Positions 27,218 to 47,127 of a stretch of 64,000 bases of DNA are shown here, piece after piece. Each line of letters starts with the position of its first letter. Positions within the stretch are counted from its first letter, which is position 1. The notes below the pieces were generated by a model. It made no database searches and was not told where the DNA came from. It was given only the letters and a program-made list of their open reading frames with translations. The stretch comes from a virus: positions 43,207 through 107,206 of the IMG/VR virus record IMGVR_UViG_3300043496_000175. One strand, written 5' to 3'. Position numbers and translations under genes: made by a program.

Positions 27218-28285
27218 CTACGCAGGTAGGGCGTAGATCCGCACGTAGTCCACCTGGTAGTCCAGGTTCTGGGTGTAGGCCTTGTTCGCCGGATCCGGCA
27301 AACCCCAGTACGCCACAGATGGTCCGATGTGCATGTTCAGACGGACGTGCATCGGTGAACCGAAGTAGGCCGCGTTCCACAGACCGGTGCCACCGTCTGC
27401 CGACGGAGTCACCCGCATGATTTGAACACCGTCTACAAAGGTAGCGGCATAGTCCGGGGTGTACTCGAAGGCGTAGACGTGGAAGTCCTGCCAGACGTTC
27501 GCAGGGCCACCGTGTTCCTTGTGCCGCCAGAACTTCTTGGTCCCGGAGCCATCGGTCTTGGTGTGGATGGTGGTGACTGCGGTGTCCTTCAGATACTTGG
27601 TGTGGTCGGTGGCCATGGTGCCGCCATACCCCCACGCCTCCATGATGTCGATCTCCCCGGATCGGTCATTCGGGCGCAGCCAGAACGCTGCCAAGGAACC
27701 CCTGGTGTTCGGGCCGGTCGGGGTCTTGCAACGGATCTCCCACCGGCCATAGGTCTGAGAGAACGTCTTGTCCCCGGTCTTGAGGGGCCGCAGATCGATA
27801 TACCCGGTGGTGTGGGTGAGTACCGTGACGCCGGTGGCGGATGCTGAGCGGGACCGGGGAGCGTCCGGCAGCCACTCACCTTTGATGTGCAGCAACCCGT
27901 TGGAGACGGTGACGTTGGCGGCTTCCGGGATCCCGGCGTCGATCCCGAGACCGAAGTTCGCTTGCGTCCGAACGTTCCACTTGTCCAAGCCACCGGTGAA
28001 CTCATCCCGCCAGACCGGGGTGCCCCAGTAGAACAAGTCTGCGGGATCCGTGGGAGGGGTAACCGGGTTCTCCAGTTCCGTGATCCGCGTCTTCAGCGTG
28101 GCGATTTCATCTTCGCGGCGAGCCACCTGTGTGGTCAGGTCAGCGATCTGGTTGCTCTTGACCTCCACAGCGGCGGCGAGTTGAGCGCGGGCGTTCTCCG
28201 CATCCATCAACTTGGTGGTCAACTCCGAGACCAGTGTGTCCACGTAAACGTTCAGTAGCCGGGCGATCTCATCGGAGTGAGCCAT
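27218..28285 (-). CDS. glycoside hydrolase family 16 with N-terminal coiled coil
   Basis: WRDEF, YGRWEIR, AFWL, catalytic EIDIME, FHVY, VDYVRIY; start set at MAHSD. Confidence 0.9.
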   Translation of the reverse strand: MAHSDEIARLLNVYVDTLVSELTTKLMDAENARAQLAAAVEVKSNQIADLTTQVARREDEIATLKTRITELENPVTPPTDPADLFYWGTPVWRDEFTGGLDKWNVRTQANFGLGIDAGIPEAANVTVSNGLLHIKGEWLPDAPRSRSASATGVTVLTHTTGYIDLRPLKTGDKTFSQTYGRWEIRCKTPTGPNTRGSLAAFWLRPNDRSGEIDIMEAWGYGGTMATDHTKYLKDTAVTTIHTKTDGSGTKKFWRHKEHGGPANVWQDFHVYAFEYTPDYAATFVDGVQIMRVTPSADGGTGLWNAAYFGSPMHVRLNMHIGPSVAYWGLPDPANKAYTQNLDYQVDYVRIYALPA

Positions 28286-28286
28286 A

Positions 28287-28553
28287 TCAGAGCCAATCTG
28301 TGGCGGTAGCCCGGAACAGGGTGGCCTGATGCCATGCCCCGTCATCGAGCAGAATCATGTGGTGCGCAGCATCGGTTTTGATGTACTGCTCATACACCCG
28401 GGCTTGCAACCCGGAGGGGATCTCTGAAGAAGCGAACTGCTCATACACTCGTGCCAGGACCGAGGTGTAAGTGGTGGCGTACTGCTCATACACCCGTGCC
28501 AGGTTCGCGGTGTAGGTAGAAGCGTGCTGCTCGTAAACCTTGGCGGTAGCCAT
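28287..28553 (-). CDS. small protein with four (K/R)VYEQ repeats
   Basis: About 15-aa repeat unit; tightly packed in operon. Confidence 0.6.
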   Translation of the reverse strand: MATAKVYEQHASTYTANLARVYEQYATTYTSVLARVYEQFASSEIPSGLQARVYEQYIKTDAAHHMILLDDGAWHQATLFRATATDWL

Positions 28554-28554
28554 A

Positions 28555-29634
28555 TCAGACCACGAAGCTGGTGCGTACTCGCAGGTTTTCCCGATCGGTG
28601 ATCAACGCTTCTTCGCCGCCGGAGCAGGTGTATTCGTAGGTGGTGGGAGTGGTGGGGATGTCGTTCTGTGTGCGAGTAGCAATCACCGACGCACCCTGCA
28701 TCAAGGCGATGGTGCAGTCCACGCCAGGATTGGCGTCCGCAGCAACACGGGACCCGAACTTCACCGGACCGGTGGTCAGGGCGGTCAGCCGGTTCTCCAC
28801 ATAGGAAGCTGTTCCGGACAGCACCCCGGTTTCCGAGTATGAGGTGTCCGACCCGTCAGCGGCTGCCGAGTAGTGCTGAGCTTTGCCAACGGAGGTCATG
28901 TTGACTGACGCGATGGTTTCCAGCGGCCGGGCCAGGGAGGAAGCTACCGGCCCGATCCAATCCGTGCCGTAAGCGATCCCGTCATACACAGCGTCCAGGG
29001 TGGCGGTGCCGGTAGATGGCTGGGCACCCCAGGTGATGTTGTCGAAGAAGGTCAGTCCAGTGGCGACACCGGAACCGCTGATCGGATCCGACAGCATGAT
29101 CCACGGGTTGTTCGCGGAAGCAGTGGACGCCAGGTAGCAGCGCAGCTCCCAGTCCCCGGCGGCGGTGAAGTGGCAGTCCAGCCGGTACCAGACACCGGTG
29201 GTGACCGGGGTGACCATGGACGCCAGGGTCGCGGTGGTGACGGACCGCTTGTAAACCGACAGCACTCCGGTGGTGGAGAGCCGGACGGAGAAGCCGGAGG
29301 CTGAAAGTGCGAAGTCGTTGGCGTTGATCAGGAAAAGGGTGGCTGATCCAAAGGCGTCGATCTTGAAGTAGGACTTCAGGTATAGATCGGTGACCCCGGC
29401 GGCGGCGGTGCGGAAACCGAACGTGGTACCCGTTGAGGCCACCAGCCGGGCGAGCCCAGCCAGGGATCCGTCGTGGGCATCGCTGGTGAACAACGCTGCA
29501 CCGCCGGTGGCGGCGAAGACGTTCGCGAGCCAGTCACCGGCTGAACCTCCGGTGTTGCCCGTGGCACCGGCGGTCAGCGCGGTCCCGGAAGGGTTACCCG
29601 ACTCGAAGGTGTTGAGCTTCGTGATGTTGGTCAT
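28555..29634 (-). CDS. beta-rich virion-type protein (lectin/LamG-like)
   Basis: NTFE.G, A..GS, TG.WYRL and YD motifs; operon context. Confidence 0.55.
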   Translation of the reverse strand: MTNITKLNTFESGNPSGTALTAGATGNTGGSAGDWLANVFAATGGAALFTSDAHDGSLAGLARLVASTGTTFGFRTAAAGVTDLYLKSYFKIDAFGSATLFLINANDFALSASGFSVRLSTTGVLSVYKRSVTTATLASMVTPVTTGVWYRLDCHFTAAGDWELRCYLASTASANNPWIMLSDPISGSGVATGLTFFDNITWGAQPSTGTATLDAVYDGIAYGTDWIGPVASSLARPLETIASVNMTSVGKAQHYSAAADGSDTSYSETGVLSGTASYVENRLTALTTGPVKFGSRVAADANPGVDCTIALMQGASVIATRTQNDIPTTPTTYEYTCSGGEEALITDRENLRVRTSFVV

Positions 29635-30764
29635 CAGTACCCCAAGTCATAGACGCGGACGTAGTCGATTTCAAATGTGCAGGGGAACTGCACCAAGTAC
29701 AGGTTGGTCATATCGCAAGCTGATGGGACGCCTCCGGTTGGGGCTACCTGATTCTGTGAGCACTTGTGCTGCATCGGCAGGTACCCGAGCTGCTGATCCG
29801 GCTGCCCAACCCACTGCCCACCGACCGCATTATTCAGGCAGATGTCCCACGCCAGATTATCTGTGCGGCGCTTCAGCCCGGTGGTCCGGTCGATCATGTT
29901 CAGGTCACGAATCGACATGACATCCGTCAATCGGTAGGAAGCGTACTGCACACCGTCAAGGTGCGCGGTGAACAGGATCGGGCATTGCAACGGATCCAGA
30001 TGCGCTGCATTGCCTGGAGTTGGATCCGGTTTGATCTCCACATCGTAAACATGCCAGTTGGTGCTGGCTCGTTGGGGAAGAGGGTTCTCCACGATCTTCG
30101 ACTGCTGGGTGGCGTTCACACCGATGGTGTTCGGGAAGTGCATGGAGTACTTGGTGTAGCCATGCCGCCAGGATCCGAAGTGCTCGAAGATGTCGATTTC
30201 ACCCCACGACGCACCGAAATTGGTGCCGTCAGAAAACGCAGCACGGCGTAGCCAGAACGCTGGGAGTGTGCCCTGCCCAAACGGGAACTTTGCCCGAATC
30301 TCGAACTTGCTGAACAGAGGGAAGTACCGGGCTGGTGAAGCTCCACGGGTATCCATCATCCCGGAAGTCCAGTAGCGGATGCCGTTGGGGAGTTGCGTCA
30401 TCGGTGTTGCCCGCATGACGCCGTACACGTACGGATCAGCGGTGGTGCCTTGCCCGGAGCGAGTCGTCAATGGTTCCACTGGTGCAGACGACAACCCGGT
30501 CTGCGTTTCGGCTTTGCTGATGATTTGGCACGACTGGCCGGTGCCGCCTGGGGTCGCGGTTGCGGTGATGATGTTTGCGGGCCGGTACATCTGCGACTCA
30601 CGGTTACCGGCGGCGAACGGGCTGTTCTGCTTGCCCCAGTTCGTGGACAAGATACCGGCTGAAAAGTCGTCCTCCCAGTAGAGTCCCGGATCCGGAGGCG
30701 TGACCTGTGGATCAGAACCGCGTGATTTCCATGCGTTAGCTGTCGCTATCCAGGTACGGCTCAT
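29634..30764 (-). CDS. glycoside hydrolase family 16
   Basis: WEDDFS, EIRAKFP.G.G..PAFWL, GEIDIFE, WHVY, IDYVRVY; start set at MSRTW. Confidence 0.9.
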   Translation of the reverse strand: MSRTWIATANAWKSRGSDPQVTPPDPGLYWEDDFSAGILSTNWGKQNSPFAAGNRESQMYRPANIITATATPGGTGQSCQIISKAETQTGLSSAPVEPLTTRSGQGTTADPYVYGVMRATPMTQLPNGIRYWTSGMMDTRGASPARYFPLFSKFEIRAKFPFGQGTLPAFWLRRAAFSDGTNFGASWGEIDIFEHFGSWRHGYTKYSMHFPNTIGVNATQQSKIVENPLPQRASTNWHVYDVEIKPDPTPGNAAHLDPLQCPILFTAHLDGVQYASYRLTDVMSIRDLNMIDRTTGLKRRTDNLAWDICLNNAVGGQWVGQPDQQLGYLPMQHKCSQNQVAPTGGVPSACDMTNLYLVQFPCTFEIDYVRVYDLGY

Positions 30765-31147
30765 TCCGGCCTCAACCACTCATCCCCCACGACCCACAGA
30801 TCAGCGGTCGCCTTGGGGTCGGTGAATCCTCGGAACCTCACCACGATGTCAGTGCGGGTGGTGCCTCTGGTGTAGACACTGGAGATCTCGTTCACGGTGT
30901 GGGAGTACCCGGCAGGAGCATTCACCAGTGTCATCGGGGTAGTCGCCAGCGCGTTCAGTTGCTGGGTGAGACCGTTGACCTCTCCAATTTCTGTGGTGTG
31001 CGCAGATGATGGGTAGGTTGCCGGTTTTCCGATGATGTCGTCCCACAGCACGGGACCATTGGGGGTCGTGGGATTGCCGGTACCACCGGTGGTTTCGATC
31101 ATCTCCCCGTTCGGACCGAGGACGTAGATCGTGTATGTGTCAGCCAT
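30761..31147 (-). CDS. small tail-fibre-related protein
   Basis: WDDI.GKP..YP.SAH....V.GL motif and terminal GD.W. Confidence 0.6.
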   Translation of the reverse strand: MADTYTIYVLGPNGEMIETTGGTGNPTTPNGPVLWDDIIGKPATYPSSAHTTEIGEVNGLTQQLNALATTPMTLVNAPAGYSHTVNEISSVYTRGTTRTDIVVRFRGFTDPKATADLWVVGDEWLRPE

Positions 31148-40383: not shown

Positions 40384-43068
40384 CTAGGGCAGGTTGAGCC
40401 GGTTCACGACCTTGGCCATGACGCTGTTGGGGATGGCGAACTCAATCCCGATACGGCGGGGCTCCTCGCCCGCCTTGATGCGGTCGTAGATCTCTTCGAG
40501 CTGGCCGAGCGTCAGGTCATAGTGCCCCGGCCCTGACCGGATCACCCCAATCAGGAACTGCCGGGGGTCGTCCCGCAGGAACGAGGTATCCACCGGGGTC
40601 TCCGGGTCCACCGGATCCGGAGGCTCCTCCAGCCACGGCACCAACACGATCGTCAAGATCGTGCGGGACAAGGACAACGCAGACCCTGCCAACGTCATGG
40701 GCTGGCCGAGAGCTGTCTGGGACGTGGTGGAAACAGAGCGGGCAGTGCCGGACAAGGACTTGCTAGAAGACAGACCTAGAGCCCCGGTGGTGGTGCTCGT
40801 GCTCTGCGCTGCACCGGACAGAGTCTTGGCGGTGCTGGTGGTTTGGCTGGCGATATGCACCAGGGCCTGGGTCTTGGAAGACCCATCGTCAAAGGAACTG
40901 AGAGCTAGTGTCTTGGTCCAGGCATCATCGGGGTTGACCTGGGAGTAGGCCCCGAGAATGACTGCCTTCCAGCCATCCTCGGGCTGCGTCCACACCCGCA
41001 CCTGCGCCCCGGAGCCGCCGGAGCCGTTCAGGGTGATGGTCTCCCCGTTGGTGTAGCCGGTGCCGTGCTGGTCGAAGATGATGTACACGCCGATGATCTG
41101 CCCGGCGGTGATGTTGACGTTGAAACCCAGGCCGCTGCCGGTACCGCCGGAAGCGACCAGGCCGTTGGTGTACCCCTGCCCAGTGGGGGAGAACTGCGCA
41201 GCGGTGTACCCGCTGCCGCCGTTGAGCAGCTCCGCCCGCCACACACTGGTGCGGGTCCACAGAGCGCTGAGCTTGGACGCCCACACCTCAGCGATCCAGT
41301 CATCAGGGATCAGCAGCTCAGTGGCGGGAATGGTCGGCAACATCTGGATGCCGAAAATGTACTCAGCCTGCGCACCGAACCAGGTGGCGTAGTCCACCTT
41401 GTTGGACCAGAGGATCCCCACCACCCCGTGGTCGTTGAATGGCTCCGGGTAGATGGTGTCGGACTGCTTGATCTGCCAGTACCGCTTGGCGGTGGCGGCC
41501 TCTTGCGCCAACAGCAGGCGGCCTAGCTCAGTGAGTTGCGTTTGGCTGGACGCCACGCCCCACAGGTGCAGCCCGTACCAGGCATTCACCGCCTCGCTGG
41601 TGGACTCCTGATTCCGGTTGTCCCCGAACTCGAAGGTCCCCGCCGCCCAGGAGTGCCCCTCGTACCAATCGAAGCAGCGCATCGGGGTGAACCAGGTGTC
41701 CGTGGCGCTGGGGTTCGCGATGTCACGGACCAGGTCGTTGATCGTGGTCTGGTAGGTGGTCAGCCACGCCCCGTCGAACTTGGCGATTACCGCTGCAGCG
41801 TAGATGACGTAGCCGTAGTGGAAGTTGTGGTCGTTGTATCGGCCGTTGCCGAAGTCGGAGTCCTGGTTGGTGAGCCCGGCGGCGGAGACGATGCCCTTCC
41901 ACATGGTGTCGTACCGCAAGCTGGTAGACAGGTTCCCGGCCAGGTACTGGTTGATGACAGCTTTCAGGTTGTTCAGCAGCGTGTTCCGGGCGGTGGTGTC
42001 TCCCACCTGGTCCGCGATCAGCGCCAGCCGCGCAGCCTTGGCAAGCTGCTTCCCGCCGAAGTAGGTGTCGGAAACCTGTGGCACGAACGTCTTGTCGCTG
42101 GCCAATGCAGTGGTAACGGCCGAAAGTCGTGATGCGTCAATAGGATTGGCGTTGTTCCAGCTAGTAGTGGGTAGCGGAATCGCCAGGGACCAGGAGTACC
42201 CCAGCACCGCACGGGCGGACCCACGCAGAGTGGAGAGGGTGAACCCTGTGGGGTAGCTAGGACTGGAAAGCCAGTCCTGGTGGTGCGGCAGCGCGTAGGT
42301 GAGCAGCGTCCCGGTGCCGGTGCTCGACCAGGTGTAGACCTCGGTCGCGGTGTTGCTGGCGATCGTGTAGTCCACCGTGCCGCCGGTATGAATCCGCGTG
42401 GCGGATGAGTCCAGCGTTGCCTCGGTAGCACCTGTGGGAAGCAGCGCCATCCGGAAGGTGCCAGTGAAGGCTGCGCCTGCCGTCAAAGTGTTAGCTGTAG
42501 ACAAGGTGAGGGTTACGCTCGCGGACGTGTAAAGAATCCAGGTTTGTCCGTTGTTGAGGGTGACCTTGAACTTGGTGCCGGTGAAGGTACCGGTGGACCC
42601 TACGGCGGTTCCGTTCATGGTCAGGATGGCGTTCTGCGTGTTCACCACCGGGGTCACGCCGGAGTAGTTCATGGTCACGTAGGCCGCGCCCCGGACAATC
42701 GTTGCGGCCATGGACCCGCCGGGCAAGGTCCAGGTGAGGGTGGCTCCCAGGTCGGTGAACGCCGTCAGCTTCTGCGCCGTGCTGGTGGCGGTGGCACGCA
42801 GCGAGAAGTTCTGCAGCATGGTCGCCAGGACCGCGTTGGGAAAGCTGGTGTTGGCCTGGGGGACGCAGAAGTCAAGCCCTTGGGTGGTCACCTTCACCAT
42901 GTACGGGAAGATGTTGATCGGCTGCTGGCCGGTGCCGAGCAGGAAGTTCTCGAACCAGGCGTTGGTGGGGATCGGCCCGGTCAGGGTGGTGCGCGCACTA
43001 TCTACGGGGTAGTAGCTAACCCCGGCGGGGAAGACCGGTGCTGATGTTGAGATCGCAGTCCTGGTCAT
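40384..43068 (-). CDS. glycoside hydrolase family 81 (endo-1,3-beta-glucanase) with virion-type repeats
   Basis: PTN.W, D.YF.GK.L.K.A, DFGN..YNDH.FHYGY, R.FDWY.GHSWA.G, NQESTSEA, TWFG, GIQ.LP. Confidence 0.92.
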   Translation of the reverse strand: MTRTAISTSAPVFPAGVSYYPVDSARTTLTGPIPTNAWFENFLLGTGQQPINIFPYMVKVTTQGLDFCVPQANTSFPNAVLATMLQNFSLRATATSTAQKLTAFTDLGATLTWTLPGGSMAATIVRGAAYVTMNYSGVTPVVNTQNAILTMNGTAVGSTGTFTGTKFKVTLNNGQTWILYTSASVTLTLSTANTLTAGAAFTGTFRMALLPTGATEATLDSSATRIHTGGTVDYTIASNTATEVYTWSSTGTGTLLTYALPHHQDWLSSPSYPTGFTLSTLRGSARAVLGYSWSLAIPLPTTSWNNANPIDASRLSAVTTALASDKTFVPQVSDTYFGGKQLAKAARLALIADQVGDTTARNTLLNNLKAVINQYLAGNLSTSLRYDTMWKGIVSAAGLTNQDSDFGNGRYNDHNFHYGYVIYAAAVIAKFDGAWLTTYQTTINDLVRDIANPSATDTWFTPMRCFDWYEGHSWAAGTFEFGDNRNQESTSEAVNAWYGLHLWGVASSQTQLTELGRLLLAQEAATAKRYWQIKQSDTIYPEPFNDHGVVGILWSNKVDYATWFGAQAEYIFGIQMLPTIPATELLIPDDWIAEVWASKLSALWTRTSVWRAELLNGGSGYTAAQFSPTGQGYTNGLVASGGTGSGLGFNVNITAGQIIGVYIIFDQHGTGYTNGETITLNGSGGSGAQVRVWTQPEDGWKAVILGAYSQVNPDDAWTKTLALSSFDDGSSKTQALVHIASQTTSTAKTLSGAAQSTSTTTGALGLSSSKSLSGTARSVSTTSQTALGQPMTLAGSALSLSRTILTIVLVPWLEEPPDPVDPETPVDTSFLRDDPRQFLIGVIRSGPGHYDLTLGQLEEIYDRIKAGEEPRRIGIEFAIPNSVMAKVVNRLNLP

Positions 43069-43487: not shown

Positions 43488-43609
43488 GGCTCAGACCCTC
43501 CAACAAGTTGTTAGCTGTGAGGGTATCGCAGTGGGGCAACTAGACAACGTGGCTCGTCACGTCAACCGATAGAGCACCCTGCCCAAGGGTGCGCCTAGCC
43601 GCCAGGCAG

Positions 43610-43682
43610 TCTCGGTGGCAGGACTCGAACCTGCAATCTTCCGCTCCCAAAGCGGATGGGATCCCAATTTCCCTACACCGGG
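43610..43682 (-). tRNA. trnP: tRNA-Pro(UGG)
   Basis: CCCGGTG TA GGGA-AATTGGGA-TCCC A TCCGC-TTTGGGA-GCGGA AGATT GCAGG-TTCGAGT-CCTGC CACCGAG A; C2-A71 mismatch; no encoded CCA. Confidence 0.9.
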
Positions 43683-43938: not shown

Positions 43939-44150
43939 ACCTCCATTCTGATCTGATAAATGCGCGCTCTGGTCATTCCAGTGCGCTCAGCGATGTCGGC
44001 TACTGCGGCCCCCGCCTGCAGTGCTGCCTTGATCGCCTGGGCTTGCACGCTCCGAGCAGCCTCCGCATCCGCGTCCGACCGACGCCGAGCTTGGGTTGCA
44101 AGCTCGACGTCGATCAGGGCAGCGCGGGGACTGATGATCATGTCCGCCAC
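43935..44150 (-). CDS. small HTH DNA-binding protein
   Basis: AI..A..AG....IA..TG.TRARIYQI. Confidence 0.7.
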   Translation of the reverse strand: MADMIISPRAALIDVELATQARRRSDADAEAARSVQAQAIKAALQAGAAVADIAERTGMTRARIYQIRMEV

Positions 44151-44830
44151 CTCTCATGATCCTGAGTTCGATAGCGTTGGATGATCTCGTCTGCAAACTT
44201 CAGAAGATCTTCGACCCGTTGACCTGGTAAGTGCTGTTTGGCCCAGAGTTCTAAGTTTTCTGGACGATTATCAAGACGAATACCGTTTCGGTGGTGCACC
44301 GTTTCTTGAGGTAAAAGTTCTCTACCGATTATTTGTTCCATCACTAATCGATGCTCTTGCTTATACTTCCCAGGTCCGAGATAGATCATTCGGTATCCCT
44401 GGCTAGTAATTACTTCTTTCTGTGCTGTAGATCTTCCGTTGTCAAGGTTTGCTTCTCCACCTCGACGCCAACGTTGGTAGTGCATTGTGCACCACCCGCG
44501 CCTGCCAGCGCCTATGATTCGATCACATGTTTCATGCTTACAGATGGTACCCTCTGGTACTGAAACCCATGCACGAGCGCCAGCTTCTGGGTCTCCGTGC
44601 TTGCGCCAACGTAACCAATGTGTTGAACACCAAGTTCGACTTACTGCTCGTTTAGGGCAATCTTTGATTGAACATATCTTTTGCTGTGGACGCTGGCCAC
44701 GGAATCGACCTTTGAGCGGATCGCCATATTTCTGCCAGTGCACGTAATGGATTCGACAATACCCTTTCGCCTTGCTCAGTAGATCACATGACTCTACTGA
44801 GCAAGGCGGCAAAGGCGGTAGTCCAGGCAT
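44138..44830 (-). CDS. HNH homing endonuclease
   Basis: Three CxxxxC..C..HY/W repeats; EHRLVME..GR.L...ETVHHRNG.R.DN..ENLELW; visibly AT-richer than flanks. Confidence 0.9.
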   Translation of the reverse strand: MPGLPPLPPCSVESCDLLSKAKGYCRIHYVHWQKYGDPLKGRFRGQRPQQKICSIKDCPKRAVSRTWCSTHWLRWRKHGDPEAGARAWVSVPEGTICKHETCDRIIGAGRRGWCTMHYQRWRRGGEANLDNGRSTAQKEVITSQGYRMIYLGPGKYKQEHRLVMEQIIGRELLPQETVHHRNGIRLDNRPENLELWAKQHLPGQRVEDLLKFADEIIQRYRTQDHERWRT

Positions 44831-46476
44831 CAGTGAACCTGAAGATCCTTTCGTTCCCAGGGCCAGTTCTGAGAAAGCCCACGTTCGATGGACTCAATCA
44901 AACGGAACGATACATCGCTCAGGCCGCCGAACGTGTGCCGCTTACGGTTCCCCGAGCGTCCCTGGGCTGCGCGGTAACCCGCGAAGTTCCAGACGTACAC
45001 CGGAGCCTTGGTGGCCGCCAGAGCATCGTCCACCGCTGCCCAGGTAGGCAGACCCTGGTTGGTAGCCCAGGCCGGGGCGTACTGCTCATCAGTCAGCAGC
45101 ACGATCCGGTCCTGCCCGGTGTAGGTGTTCTGAATCGCCTGGATGGTGTTGGTGCCGCCCAGACCCGGGAACATCTGACCGATATAGCCCGCCCGGGAAC
45201 CGTCCACCTGAACATCAGCCATGCCCTTGGCCAGCTTGAGCAACGAACCCCGAACCTGGAACGGCTTGGTCTCCCAGCCAAAGCCGTACAGGTCCACCTG
45301 CTCCGAGCGCCGAGCCAGCGCCGCCCCGAAGATGCAGGCCGCGTCCGCCCACCGCAGATTCGACATCTCGGTGAGGGTGTGGTCATACATTGAGCCGGAC
45401 AAATCCGTCAGGATCAGCGTCCGACCGCCGAGCACGGGCACATTGCTCAGCGACAGGTCCAGCGCGGTCTCCAGGATCGGACCCCACGCCGTCACGGTGT
45501 CGGACTCATCCACTGCCCGGTAGGCGTTGAGGAAGCTCATCGGGAACATCCGGGACTTGGCGATCTCGTCCGGATCCGTCAGCTTGTCCTCGATCAACCG
45601 GACCGAGGTCCGGCTGATCTTGGACTGGTCGAAGTTCCGGAGGTTCCGGACCAGGGCAAAGATCCCCATGGACGGGATGATCTTGTCCCAGGACGGACCG
45701 TCCATCGCGGACTGCTTCCAGCCCGCGAACGACTCCCAGGTCATGCCTGCCTCCTGGAGCTGACCGGCGGTGACTTCGCTGCGCGCTGCCACCGGCATCT
45801 CCATGAGCGCCTTGCGGGCACGCACCATGCCGAGGATCTCGGGAGTCTCGTTCGTCCCGTACCGGTTGTCCAGGGAGAACTTGAACAGTGCGTTCTGCCA
45901 CTGCTTCTCGGACTTGGGGTGACAGATCTGCAGGACGTCCGCGAACCGGAAGGCCTTGGAGTCGGTGTCCCACTTGAGGTAGGAACGCTCGTTCCACATC
46001 CGGTCCAACGCATCAGCGATGCCACGCTTGACCGGCTTGGGGACGTTCCGGCCGTAGGTGGCGAACCAGTACGCCAGCATCTCGCCCGGCTCATCCGCCC
46101 GCTGCAGGGCAGCGGAGATGATCTGCCGGTTGCCCTGAATGCCTCGGGACAGACGCTCGTGCACGGCGTCAGCCGCAGCCACGATGGACGCCGAGCGGAT
46201 GTTGGCCTCGCCGCGCAGGTAGCCGATGAAGCCGGTGATCCAGTCGGTGTCCGGAGACAGTTCCCGCACGAGGTGCGTGAAGCGCTCATCCCGGGCCCGG
46301 CCGTCCTCGTGGAACGCGCCCTTGGGCTCGCTCATGTTGGAGACGGCCAGGAGGAACAGCTCTGAGCGCTGATCACGGGAGACGCCACGGGCACCGAGTG
46401 CGGTGCGGGCGGGGGCCTCGATCGTTGCGATCGGAGACCGGACGCCGAGGTGAGGGGCGGAGTTGAAGCGAGCCAC
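44830..46476 (-). CDS. rsr: Ro60/TROVE-domain RNA-binding protein with C-terminal vWA domain
   Basis: ELFLLAV, RADEPGE.LAY, PKPVKRG.AD, D...HPK, TWE, M...AL.RNLRN, DLSGSM MIDAS, GGTN, TDEQ, GGLSD; GTG 46476 with GAAAGG SD. Confidence 0.95.
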   Translation of the reverse strand: MARFNSAPHLGVRSPIATIEAPARTALGARGVSRDQRSELFLLAVSNMSEPKGAFHEDGRARDERFTHLVRELSPDTDWITGFIGYLRGEANIRSASIVAAADAVHERLSRGIQGNRQIISAALQRADEPGEMLAYWFATYGRNVPKPVKRGIADALDRMWNERSYLKWDTDSKAFRFADVLQICHPKSEKQWQNALFKFSLDNRYGTNETPEILGMVRARKALMEMPVAARSEVTAGQLQEAGMTWESFAGWKQSAMDGPSWDKIIPSMGIFALVRNLRNFDQSKISRTSVRLIEDKLTDPDEIAKSRMFPMSFLNAYRAVDESDTVTAWGPILETALDLSLSNVPVLGGRTLILTDLSGSMYDHTLTEMSNLRWADAACIFGAALARRSEQVDLYGFGWETKPFQVRGSLLKLAKGMADVQVDGSRAGYIGQMFPGLGGTNTIQAIQNTYTGQDRIVLLTDEQYAPAWATNQGLPTWAAVDDALAATKAPVYVWNFAGYRAAQGRSGNRKRHTFGGLSDVSFRLIESIERGLSQNWPWERKDLQVH

Positions 46477-46500
46477 CAGAGTAGCCTTTCTGCTCGTAGA

Positions 46501-46604
46501 GTGATGGTGAGAAATGATCGATTTCAGGAAGACCCCTACCCGGTCTAAGCCGGAGGATCCGCGTAACAAGCGGAAGTACCTGACACCCTTCGCACCACCA
46601 TCAC
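46501..46604 (-). ncRNA. Y-RNA-like element, unit 1 (nearest rsr)
   Basis: GTGATGGTG/CACCATCAC closing stem; GTGCGAAG; TCAGG/CCTGA; TACTTC; TTTCT. Confidence 0.75.
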
Positions 46605-46617
46605 CAGTCGAGTAGAA

Positions 46618-46747
46618 GAGAGTGAGAAAAAGACGGTTCTGGTTATTGACTGCTCTGCCGTTGAGCTACCGCACCGAAGTGCGACTCGGAATCGAACCGA
46701 GAACCTATCTCTTACAAGGAAGTAACCAGTACCTGCGCACCACTCTC
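46618..46747 (-). ncRNA. yrlA: YrlA-type Y RNA with circularly permuted tRNA-like domain, unit 2
   Basis: GAGAGTG/CACTCTC stem; T arm CTCGG-TTCGATT-CCGAG; acceptor stem closed by TTCG; D arm TA-GCTC-AACGGCA-GAGC; beside Ro60 gene. Confidence 0.88.
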
Positions 46748-46763
46748 GAAGACTGAAAGGTGA

Positions 46764-46863
46764 GGCAGCGAGAAAGATCGGACACGGTTCCTGAGCGTCG
46801 AAGCCCAGCCAGAGCAAGGCTCTGGTTTCTGCCTGAAGTAACCGTTTCCTGCGCACCGCTACC
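46764..46863 (-). ncRNA. Y-RNA-like element, unit 3
   Basis: GGTAGCG/CGCTGCC; GTGCGCAG; ACGGTT/AACCGT; TACTTC; TTTCT. Confidence 0.75.
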
Positions 46864-46879
46864 GTGCTATTTAGTTAGG

Positions 46880-46997
46880 AGCCAGCGAGAAATGATGAAG
46901 TTCAGACGGTACTATCTTGCGGACTTTCCTTGTGTCCACCAATCAACGGGGCGAGGCCCCTGGCAGGAAGTATCTGATCCTCTTCGCACCGCTGGCT
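46880..46997 (-). ncRNA. Y-RNA-like element, unit 4
   Basis: AGCCAGCG/CGCTGGCT; GTGCGAAG; TCAGA/TCTGA; TACTTC; TTTCT. Confidence 0.75.
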
Positions 46998-47014
46998 TAC
47001 TTGTTCAGTTGTTG

Positions 47015-47088
47015 AGGCAGTGAGAAAAATCGACGTCCCGGCGTAGTTTCACCAGAAGAAGTAGCCGGAGGTCTTCGCACCACTGCCT
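47015..47088 (-). ncRNA. Y-RNA-like element, unit 5 (minimal, first transcribed)
   Basis: AGGCAGTG/CACTGCCT; GTGCGAAG; CCGGC/GCCGG; TACTTC; TTTCT. Confidence 0.75.
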
Positions 47089-47098
47089 TGCTGAGATG

Positions 47099-47127
47099 AC
47101 TATTGCACTCCGGTCAACCGGTGTCAA
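47099..47127 (-). promoter_or_regulatory. putative promoter for Y RNA array/rsr operon
   Basis: TTGACA-17-AATAGT, with TGn before the -10, about 10 nt upstream of unit 5. Confidence 0.5.

What the first reader, a model, noticed from the sequence alone, without database searches (positions are those of the whole stretch)
44830..47127. Ro60/TROVE gene preceded by five tandem Y-RNA-like cassettes with a constant scaffold and variable inserts
Seen: five units on the - strand (47015-47088, 46880-46997, 46764-46863, 46618-46747, 46501-46604; 74-130 nt) separated by 13-17 nt spacers. Each has a 7-9 bp closing stem whose sequence differs but whose pairing is kept, then GTGCG(A/C)AG, an inner 5-7 bp stem, TACTTC, a different structured insert, the inner stem partner and TTTCT. 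The array lies between a TTGACA promoter candidate and the rsr start. Established: bacterial Ro60 orthologs bind adjacently encoded Y RNAs made of a Ro-binding stem plus an effector module (tethering to PNPase in Deinococcus); to my knowledge one or two are described per locus. Inference: a modular phage RNP system in which one Ro60 is loaded with five alternative RNAs cut from one precursor.
Basis: partly seen in the sequence, partly recalled or inferred. Interest (0 to 1): 0.92.

Follow-up and report, generated by a model that had tools for sequence, protein, structure and literature searches.

The report
Five Y-RNA genes before phage Ro60
An uncultured actinobacterial phage carries five small RNA genes in a row, all with the same protein-binding "handle" but different tRNA-like cargo, just upstream of its Ro60 gene. 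This expands the known Ro60/Y-RNA pairing, and I found similar arrays, unannotated, in many other phages and in Streptomyces.

Summary
Five units lie on the minus strand at the stated coordinates. Each has a 7-9 bp closing helix, GGUGCG(A/C)AG, an inner helix, UACUUC, a different insert, and UUUCUC. The shared motif occurs 5 times in the window against 0 expected.

A covariance model trained on RNAs upstream of other Ro60 genes finds exactly these five in 64 kb (E 6e-9 to 5e-5). The closing helices keep pairing through compensatory changes.

The gene downstream is a true Ro60 (TROVE domain, intact DxSxS metal site, full-length match to the solved phage phiLo Ro60). Unit 4 is a YrlA-type tRNA mimic and unit 1 a short hairpin-type Y RNA. 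Units 2, 3 and 5 carry other hairpin modules.

The array is not unique. The same handle occurs 2-3 times, at most 4, upstream of rsr in Streptomyces chromosomes. It occurs up to 6 times in viral contigs, 5 times in Streptomyces phage Alone3 and 4 times in Gordonia phage Neville, always unannotated or misannotated.

I found no paper describing more than two Y RNAs at a phage locus. Ro60 binding and precursor processing remain untested. This scan has noted similar arrays on other DNA.

Verdict: a real, expanded variant of a known system.

The parts
47099..47127 (-). Sigma-70-like promoter candidate: TTGACA, 17 nt, AATAGT, with TG before the -10. It ends 10 nt before unit 1.
   Evidence: 10 of 12 matches. 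Only 2 such sites were found in the 4.2-kb region against 1.0 expected, so this is weak evidence on its own.
47015..47088 (-). Unit 1, 74 nt. It has the handle plus a small pyrimidine-rich apical loop, and belongs to the short class (YrlB/Yrn2-like hairpin type).
   Evidence: Fold. It aligns with 25 short units from other contigs. R3 gives 48.5 bits, E 6.4e-9, but this unit is one of the model's 150 training rows.
46880..46997 (-). Unit 2, 118 nt. It has the handle plus a two-hairpin module (GGGGC-CUC-GCCCC and GUGGAC-9 nt-GUCCGC) with no recognisable relative.
   Evidence: R3 gives 32.8 bits, E 2.4e-5, full length. Fold. The module has no blastn match in the 203 loci then held.
46764..46863 (-). 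Unit 3, 100 nt. It has the handle (GCGCAG variant) plus one hairpin and a T-arm-like hairpin (CUGGGC-UUCGAC-GCUCAG).
   Evidence: R3 gives 41.3 bits, E 2.8e-7. Fold. Modules of the same build occur in L282, L166 and L199.
46618..46747 (-). Unit 4, 130 nt, the YrlA-type unit. It has the handle (GCGCAG variant), an anticodon-arm-like hairpin (loop CUUGUAA), a T arm, a closed acceptor-like arm and a D arm.
   Evidence: Rfam YrlA RF02553 gives 37 bits, E 2.8e-6, model positions 22-89, below the gathering score of 69. R3 gives 45.6 bits, E 3e-8. ARAGORN miscalls 46676-46746 as tRNA-Thr, but the Rfam tRNA model gives only 15.3 bits against a threshold of 29.
46501..46604 (-). Unit 5, 104 nt. It has the handle, an anticodon-arm-like hairpin (5 bp, loop UUGUUAC) and a T-arm-like hairpin (CCGG-CUUAGA-CCGG). 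It looks like a remodelled YrlA that lacks the acceptor and D arms.
   Evidence: R3 gives 31.5 bits, E 5e-5. The inner helix is weak. In L209 (Ro60 56% identical) the same 3' closing strand and leader go with a full tRNA-like module.
46483..46500 (-). Leader between unit 5 and the Ro60 start. It contains the ribosome-binding site GAAAGG.
   Evidence: Read from the sequence. GAGCAGAAAGGC is also present in L209.
44830..46482 (-). Ro60 / Rsr orthologue, 550 aa (TROVE plus vWA with a DLSGS metal-site motif), GTG start.
   Evidence: Pfam TROVE 1.6e-12. PDB 9KOP/9L5Y (phage phiLo Ro60) E 2.3e-25 over residues 19-533, and Deinococcus Rsr 2NVO E 1.9e-7. 4448 relatives at E <= 1e-30. D358, S360 and S362 are invariant in 24 relatives. 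GC3 of 0.85 is typical of this phage's genes.

Best explanation
This is a phage Ro60 operon whose first 590 nt encode five Y RNAs. Each RNA has the handle typical of actinobacterial Ro60 loci. The handle is a closing helix made by the RNA's two ends, an asymmetric internal loop (UGCGMA on the 5' side, GAUC..UUUCU on the 3' side), a two-part inner helix and the conserved UACUUC. The handle most likely docks on the outer face of the phage Ro60 ring, as the CGAA-type motif does in known Y RNAs. The part beyond the handle differs between units and is built from tRNA pieces. Unit 4 is a full YrlA-type tRNA mimic. Units 3 and 5 are partial mimics. Unit 1 carries a small loop. Unit 2 carries two unrelated hairpins. 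The likely sequence of events is as follows. One transcript starts at the promoter-like site just before unit 1 and runs through the array into the Ro60 gene. Host RNases cut in the 13-17 nt unstructured spacers. The five RNAs then give alternative Ro60 particles. By analogy with Deinococcus and phage phiLo, these would tether Ro60 to host PNPase or to tRNA-binding proteins and gate its cavity, redirecting host RNA turnover during infection. What is shown: the units, their conserved structure, their strict linkage to Ro60 genes, and the identity of the protein. What is inferred: co-transcription, processing, binding and the tethering role.
For: The motif occurs 5 times in the window against 0 expected. 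The closing helices covary within the array and across 148 distinct family members: 79.8% of cells paired against 62.3% shuffled, covariation 0.444 against 0.144, and at most 0.12 when slid. The inner helix prefers its own partner: -12.5 against -8.1 kcal/mol, Mann-Whitney p = 6e-63, with window units 1-4 in the best 0.5-2.4%. R3 finds exactly the five units. All 155 R2 hits outside the window, in 76 viral loci chosen by protein and 3 GenBank phage loci, lie on the Ro60 strand and upstream of the gene. The same holds for all 193 R3 hits in 80 bacterial loci. On the opposite strand my motif scan found none in 73 of 80 loci. All five units share the rare 3' variant UUUCUC, seen in about 2% of 300 family units, and so does the closest reachable relative L209. 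This fits one protein partner. Unit 4 matches the YrlA core. The protein is a full-length Ro60 with an intact MIDAS motif. ORFs across the array lack the phage's GC3 bias, 0.52 against 0.81-0.85. The literature shows that Y RNAs are encoded beside rsr on the same strand, share a CGAA-type motif, can be polycistronic, and form Ro60-Y RNA-PNPase complexes, also for a phage Ro60 (PMC4201824, PMC12135203).
Against: There are no expression, processing or binding data. The published motif GNCGAAN0-1G is matched only in part: units 1, 2 and 5 read UGCGAAG and units 3 and 4 read UGCGCAG. Unit 5's inner helix is no better than non-cognate pairings. The modules of units 2, 3 and 5 have no sequence relative in the loci I could reach, so their conservation could not be tested. 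The promoter match is weak statistically. U-rich stretches after the inner helix of units 1 and 4 resemble terminator tails, so read-through into Ro60 is not certain. The pair counts on alignment A6 lean towards the structure, because that alignment was fitted to it.
Confidence: 0.75

Rival explanations
1. Only the canonical pair is functional: unit 1 (short type) and unit 4 (YrlA type). Units 2, 3 and 5 are recent tandem duplicates on their way to decay.
For: The commonest layout elsewhere is one short unit plus one long unit. The modules of units 2, 3 and 5 have no detectable relatives. Unit 5 has a weak inner helix and looks like a truncated YrlA. The closing helices of units 1-3 are similar enough to suggest duplication.
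Against: All five keep GGUGCGMAG, UACUUC and UUUCUC exactly. They keep their closing helices through compensatory double changes, which decaying copies would not. Arrays of 4-6 units recur in unrelated phages and contigs. Mid-sized units with one or two hairpins plus a T-arm-like hairpin form a recurrent class.
Confidence: 0.13
2. The array is mainly a cis-acting leader. Ro60 binds the repeated handles in its own 5' untranslated region and thereby controls its own translation or mRNA stability. No free small RNAs are released.
For: The array lies between the only promoter-like site and the start codon, 18 nt from the ribosome-binding site. No clear terminator separates them.
Against: In Arthrobacter phage Atuin three units lie downstream of the Ro gene, among tRNA genes. 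In L181 and L154 some units lie more than 1 kb upstream. Characterised bacterial Y RNAs from the same layout accumulate as discrete RNAs (PMC4201824). Five different modules are not needed for autoregulation.
Confidence: 0.08
3. The units are relics of a phage tRNA gene cluster (pseudo-tRNAs) and have no link to Ro60.
For: ARAGORN calls a tRNA inside unit 4. Related phages have Ro60 embedded in tRNA clusters. The modules contain T-arm-like and anticodon-arm-like hairpins.
Against: The Rfam tRNA model gives 15.3 bits against a threshold of 29. The shared handle is not a tRNA feature and follows Ro60 genes strictly in strand and position. Streptomyces chromosomes carry the same RNAs upstream of rsr, and no tRNA matched at the two such loci I scanned with Rfam (L351, L365).
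Confidence: 0.02

Closest known systems
Bacterial and mycobacteriophage YrlA/YrlB Y RNAs with Rsr (Ro60): Salmonella, Mycobacterium smegmatis (Chen et al. 2014, PMC4201824; Rfam RF02553)
   Same: The RNAs are encoded next to rsr on the same strand. The 5' and 3' ends pair. A CGAA-type motif sits in a loop near the 5' end. One RNA has T, closed acceptor and D arms (unit 4), and one is a simple hairpin type (unit 1). M. smegmatis likewise has its Y RNAs 5' of rsr.
   Different: There are five units instead of the two described. Three modules (units 2, 3, 5) are neither YrlA nor YrlB in build. The motif reads UGCG(A/C)AG rather than GNCGAAN0-1G. A conserved UACUUC is often followed by an anticodon-arm-like hairpin, whereas Salmonella YrlA is stated to lack an anticodon loop (bioRxiv 10.1101/312249). 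Every long unit of this actinobacterial family that matched scored 35-54 bits on RF02553, below its threshold of 69.
Thermus phage phiLo Ro60 with Yrl1 and Yrl2 (PMC12135203; PDB 9KOP, 9L5Y)
   Same: It is a phage-encoded Ro60 with Y-RNA-like genes directly upstream, found through the CGAA motif and a stem-bulge-stem fold. It is the best solved-structure match of this protein (E 2.3e-25). Binding to Ro60 and a ternary complex with host PNPase were shown for that system.
   Different: It has two RNAs, not five. The protein shares only about 26% identity. No tRNA-like module is reported in the passages I read.
Deinococcus radiodurans Rsr with Yrn1 and Yrn2 and the Ro60-Y RNA-PNPase machine
   Same: Several small RNAs are encoded upstream of rsr. 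[quoted passage not shown] The Y RNA tethers Ro60 to PNPase (PMC4201824).
   Different: The Ro-binding helix there conserves both strands, and the T and D arms are arranged differently. The paper says that lineage evolved independently of YrlA. I made no sequence comparison with it here.
Animal Y RNA families (four in humans)
   Same: One Ro60 protein has several Y RNAs that share a Ro-binding stem and differ in the loop module.
   Different: This comparison is from my own knowledge and was not tested here. In animals the genes are separate polymerase III units, not one tandem operon with the protein gene, and there is no tRNA mimicry.

Membership tests
Ro60 / Rsr (TROVE + vWA) | TROVE domain | tested here: met
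   Pfam PF05731, E 1.6e-12, 47.8 bits against a cut-off of 23. The precomputed PF05731 is also listed for the whole cluster.
Ro60 / Rsr (TROVE + vWA) | Full-length homology to Ro60 proteins with a solved ring structure | tested here: met
   9KOP/9L5Y E 2.3e-25 over residues 19-533, and 2NVO E 1.9e-7 over residues 124-408. No structure was predicted here.
Ro60 / Rsr (TROVE + vWA) | vWA domain with a MIDAS motif (DxSxS) | tested here: met
   The sequence reads LTDLSGSM. D358, S360 and S362 are invariant in 24 relatives.
Y RNA (Ro60 partner RNA) | Helix formed by the RNA's 5' and 3' ends | tested here: met
   All five units have it. Compensatory changes occur within the array and across the family.
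Y RNA (Ro60 partner RNA) | Conserved Ro-binding motif (GNCGAAN0-1G in YrlA/YrlB; CGAA in phiLo Yrl) | tested here: inconclusive
   Units 1, 2 and 5 have GCGAAG, which contains the CGAA core, but U stands where the motif has its first G. Units 3 and 4 have GCGCAG. Across the family the variable base is mostly C or A, sometimes U.
Y RNA (Ro60 partner RNA) | Encoded within a few kb of the Ro60 gene, on the same strand | tested here: met
   The array ends 18 nt before the start codon. The family shows the same linkage in 155 of 155 and 193 of 193 hits.
Y RNA (Ro60 partner RNA) | Physically bound and stabilised by Ro60 | not testable with these tools
   This needs RIP-seq or gel-shift assays.
YrlA (Rfam RF02553) | Score at or above the family's gathering threshold (69 bits) | tested here: not met
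   Unit 4 scores 37 bits on model positions 22-89 only. Related long units in Streptomyces and phages score 35-54 bits. Units 1, 2, 3 and 5 give no match.
YrlA (Rfam RF02553) | T arm, closed acceptor-like arm and D arm in that order | tested here: met
   The alignment of unit 4 to the model shows all three arms with posterior near 1. Units 3 and 5 have only a T-arm-like hairpin, and units 1 and 2 have none.
tRNA | Rfam tRNA model at or above 29 bits, with a free acceptor end | tested here: not met
   The score is 15.3 bits, E 5.5. The acceptor-like arm is a closed hairpin, so the ARAGORN call is a false positive.

The most novel reading that the evidence does not exclude
The five RNAs are a multiplexed bait set. 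Ro60 serves as a common anchor, and each module is a different tRNA piece (anticodon-arm-like, T-arm-like or a whole tRNA body). Each would capture or distract a different host tRNA-recognising factor, for example an anticodon nuclease or other tRNA-targeting defence, a modification enzyme or an exoribonuclease. On this reading, arrays expand and shuffle their modules in phages under an arms race. Two observations fit it. Hairpins with a 7-nt YU-NNN-R loop next to UACUUC occur in 34-40% of family units against 2-3.5% in shuffled controls, with many different 'anticodons'. A relative carries the same handle with a different module. Neither observation shows a decoy function. The hairpins may simply be relics of the dimeric-tRNA origin proposed for YrlA (bioRxiv 10.1101/312249).
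Probability: 0.12. Interest if true: 0.85.

Novelty: new variant of a known kind. Interest (0 to 1): 0.55.

Why it matters
Ro60 and its Y RNAs are conserved from bacteria to humans, yet what the variable part of a Y RNA recruits is still largely unknown outside Deinococcus. This locus, and the family it belongs to, give a natural series of one handle with many modules. There are five in this phage, up to six elsewhere, and two to four in Streptomyces chromosomes. The modules are built from recognisable tRNA pieces. That makes it directly testable which module recruits which partner, in culturable phages such as Streptomyces phage Alone3 and Gordonia phage Neville. It also exposes an annotation gap. 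These RNAs score below Rfam's YrlA threshold. In GenBank they are currently labelled as a tRNA or as small hypothetical proteins.

Tried and rejected
- **Single-sequence model.** Model R1, built from unit 1 alone, found only itself. R2, built from 26 short units, found units 1, 3 and 4 (unit 4 misaligned), gave unit 5 only E 0.32 and missed unit 2, because long inserts are penalised. R3 solved this.
- **MAFFT alignment of the five units.** It misaligned the 3' strand of the inner helix. I therefore tested that helix with a cognate against non-cognate duplex-energy comparison.
- **Closer relatives.**
  - The single-protein scan of viral contigs found nothing.
  - The metagenome scan gave one 56% relative with only 125 nt upstream.
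  - Two handle-specific DNA patterns found nothing in viral contigs.
- **DNA searches of GenBank phages.** The array and a 14-kb neighbouring stretch gave no match.
- **Module search.** blastn of the modules against the 203 loci then held matched only unit 4.
- **Literature.** Two Ro60/Y-RNA reviews and the supplement tables of Chen et al. 2014 are not held. I cannot exclude that larger phage arrays are mentioned there.
- **Rejected readings.** A protein-coding reading of the 103-aa ORF across units 3-5 fails on GC3, 0.52 against 0.81-0.85. A true tRNA in unit 4 is rejected. The mir-1490 match to unit 1 (20.5 bits against a threshold of 75) is chance.
Full report
**What the window is.** It is the last 64 kb of a 107-kb IMG/VR virus record, estimated 87% complete. 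Its genes are those of a tailed phage of an actinobacterium:
- a tape-measure-sized ORF, a LysM lysin, a family A DNA polymerase, an SNF2 helicase, a DUF3987 protein, a holin and a WhiB-like regulator;
- overall G+C of 62%, with GC3 of 0.81-0.85 in real genes.

**The observation.** The minus strand between 47088 and 46501 holds five units of 74, 118, 100, 130 and 104 nt, separated by 17, 16, 16 and 13 nt. Read 5' to 3', each unit has:
- a 7-9 bp strand P1;
- G-UGCG(A/C)A-G;
- 8-9 nt that form a two-part helix P2 with a downstream partner;
- UACUUC, then a unit-specific insert;
- the P2 partner, then (G)AUC..UUUCU;
- the P1 partner.

The motif GTGCGMAG-N7-10-TACTTC occurs five times in the window against 0.00 expected. 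It occurs nowhere else in the whole record. Each unit folds with its ends paired, z = -2.1 to -2.6.

Within the array, P1 pairs in 95.6% of cells, and 5 of 9 pairs carry changes on both sides. The covariation score is 0.611, against 0.206 in shuffles (0 of 500 reach it) and at most 0.256 when the partner is slid. The ORFs that cross the array have flat GC3 (0.52), so they are not coding.

**The protein.** The ORF 44830-46482 (GTG start, GAAAGG upstream) has a TROVE domain. It matches the solved phage phiLo Ro60 over residues 19-533 (E 2.3e-25) and Deinococcus Rsr (E 1.9e-7). It has the vWA metal-site motif DLSGS, invariant in 24 relatives. It has thousands of relatives. The closest named ones are Streptomyces TROVE proteins (45-47% identity) and Streptomyces, Gordonia and Arthrobacter phage 'Ro-like RNA binding proteins' (37-43%).

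**The units belong to a large family tied to Ro60.**
- A motif scan of IMG/VR returned many contigs with 2-4 clustered matches.
- I then chose loci by protein only: 80 viral, 80 metagenomic and 80 bacterial.
- Model R2, built from 26 short units, found 155 hits outside the window, in 76 of the viral loci and three GenBank phage loci. All lie on the Ro60 strand and upstream of the gene.
- On the resulting alignment the structure pairs in 79.8% of cells against 62.3% shuffled. Covariation is 0.444 against 0.144 shuffled and at most 0.12 slid. P1 is 95% paired. That alignment is fitted to the model, so it leans towards the structure.
- P2 was poorly aligned, so I compared duplex energies. Cognate strands give -12.5 kcal/mol and non-cognate strands -8.1 (p = 6e-63). 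Window units 1-4 fall in the best 0.5-2.4%; unit 5 does not.
- Model R3 was built from those 150 hits, of which only unit 1 comes from the window. E runs from 6.4e-9 to 5e-5, and the next hit is at 0.08.

**How unusual five units are.**
- R3 finds six units in each of L031, L146, L173, L181, L199 and L282.
- It finds five in Streptomyces phage Alone3, directly before its Ro gene.
- It finds four in Gordonia phage Neville.
- It finds one upstream and three downstream of the Ro gene in Arthrobacter phage Atuin.
- In 80 bacterial loci, mostly Streptomyces, it finds 193 units, all upstream of rsr on its strand. The usual number is two or three and the most is four.
- My cruder motif census gives the same picture, with a mode of two, a viral tail to five or six and a bacterial maximum of four. 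The opposite strand is almost empty.

Five is therefore in the upper tail, but it is not unique.

These RNAs are not annotated. Every long unit that matched RF02553 scored 35-54 bits, below its threshold of 69. In Alone3 one unit is labelled tRNA-Ser(gct), which the Rfam tRNA model does not support. In Neville three small 'hypothetical protein' ORFs (gp88-90) cover the units and the annotated start of the Ro gene overlaps the last one.

**The modules.**
- Unit 4 matches the T arm, closed acceptor-like arm and D arm of YrlA.
- Unit 1 belongs to a conserved short class. That class resembles the hairpin-type Y RNAs YrlB and Yrn2 described in PMC4201824.
- Unit 3 is a hairpin plus a T-arm-like hairpin, a build that recurs elsewhere.
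- Unit 5 has a 5-bp, 7-nt-loop hairpin (UUGUUAC) and a T-arm-like hairpin.
- Unit 2 has two hairpins without a recognisable relative.

In the closest reachable relative, L209 (Ro60 56% identical), the last unit has unit 5's closing strand (CACCAUCAC) and leader but a full tRNA-like module like unit 4's. Handle and module can therefore be recombined or remodelled.

All five window units, and L209, share the 3' variant UUUCUC. It is seen in only about 2% of 300 family units, most of which have GAUCUC. This fits one shared protein partner or a recent common origin.

Hairpins with an anticodon-loop-like YU-NNN-R loop next to UACUUC are about ten times enriched over shuffles in the family. In the window only units 4 and 5 meet that test. 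They sit where the variable loop lies in Salmonella YrlA, which is stated to lack an anticodon loop. They also fit the published idea that YrlA arose from a dimeric tRNA.

**How it most likely works.** A promoter-like site, TTGACA-17-AATAGT with TG, ends 10 nt before unit 1. No convincing terminator lies between the array and the gene, although units 1 and 4 have U-rich 3' loops. I infer one transcript, cleavage in the unstructured spacers, and five alternative Ro60 particles. By analogy with Deinococcus and phiLo, their modules would tether Ro60 to host PNPase or tRNA-binding proteins. Binding, processing and function are untested.

**Literature.** The papers I could read describe YrlA in 22 phages, at least two Y RNAs in each of three bacteria, polycistronic synthesis with a tRNA in Deinococcus (PMC4201824), and two Yrl RNAs upstream of phiLo Ro60 (PMC12135203). 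My searches found no description of larger arrays. Two reviews and the 2014 supplement tables are not held.

**Earlier notes of this scan.** They report similar arrays beside Ro60-like genes in other phages. They also raise the anticodon-loop idea on this same stretch. I tested the latter only statistically.

**Verdict.** The feature is real and well supported. It is an expanded, modular variant of the known Ro60/Y-RNA system, and one member of a widespread, unannotated family.

Noticed in passing
window 44138-44830 (-): An HNH endonuclease gene (Pfam HNH_3, PHROG HNH families) starts at the Ro60 stop codon (TGATG overlap). Its G+C is 0.49 and its GC3 is 0.41, against 0.81-0.85 in the phage's other genes. 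It is probably a recently acquired homing endonuclease.
   Followed up: partly
L001 (Streptomyces phage Alone3, OR725492.1) 1788-2417; L002 (Gordonia phage Neville, NC_060131.1) 2007-2474: Handle-bearing units in GenBank phages are misannotated. In Alone3, 'tRNA-Ser(gct)' at locus 2277-2350 lies inside a Y-like unit and has no Rfam tRNA match at E <= 0.001. In Neville, the small 'hypothetical protein' ORFs gp88-gp90 and the annotated start of the Ro gene overlap four units.
   Followed up: partly
window 46676-46746 (-): ARAGORN calls a tRNA-Thr(tgt) inside unit 4. It joins the first hairpin, the T arm and half of the closed acceptor-like arm. The Rfam tRNA model gives 15.3 bits against a threshold of 29, so this is a false tRNA call.
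   Followed up: yes
L209:1-125 (metagenome contig Ga0157369_10034086): The closest reachable relative (Ro60 56% identical) has unit 5's closing strand and leader but a full tRNA-like module. This suggests that handle and module are exchanged or remodelled between relatives. It rests on one comparison only, and the contig ends inside the unit.
   Followed up: partly
family units in L018, L054, L129, L161, L174, L289 and many others: In many family units the closing helix is CCUCCCGG paired with UCGGGAGG, that is, an anti-Shine-Dalgarno-like strand paired with a Shine-Dalgarno-like strand. None of the window's five units has it. I have no explanation.
   Followed up: no
family units (alignments A6, A7): A 5-bp, 7-nt-loop hairpin with an anticodon-like YU-NNN-R loop directly after UACUUC occurs in 34-40% of units, against 2-3.5% in shuffled controls. 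The middle triplets vary (GUU, GAU, GCU, CAU, GCA and others). The units are related to one another and the shuffle is crude.
   Followed up: partly
window 40384-43068 (-), 27218-28345 (-), 29634-30779 (-): One glycoside hydrolase family 81 protein (E 1.8e-98) and two proteins with GH16 domains lie among tail-like genes. These glucanase-type domains are possibly depolymerases for a host surface glycan.
   Followed up: no
window 43609-43682 (-): A single genuine tRNA-Pro(tgg) (Rfam 59.9 bits) lies 450 nt downstream of the HNH gene, on the same strand as the Ro60 operon. In related phages Ro60 sits inside large tRNA clusters.
   Followed up: no
L001 4470-4702 (Streptomyces phage Alone3): There is a sub-threshold match to the manA RNA motif (47.8 bits against 55.2) between tRNA genes just downstream of that phage's Ro gene.
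   Followed up: no
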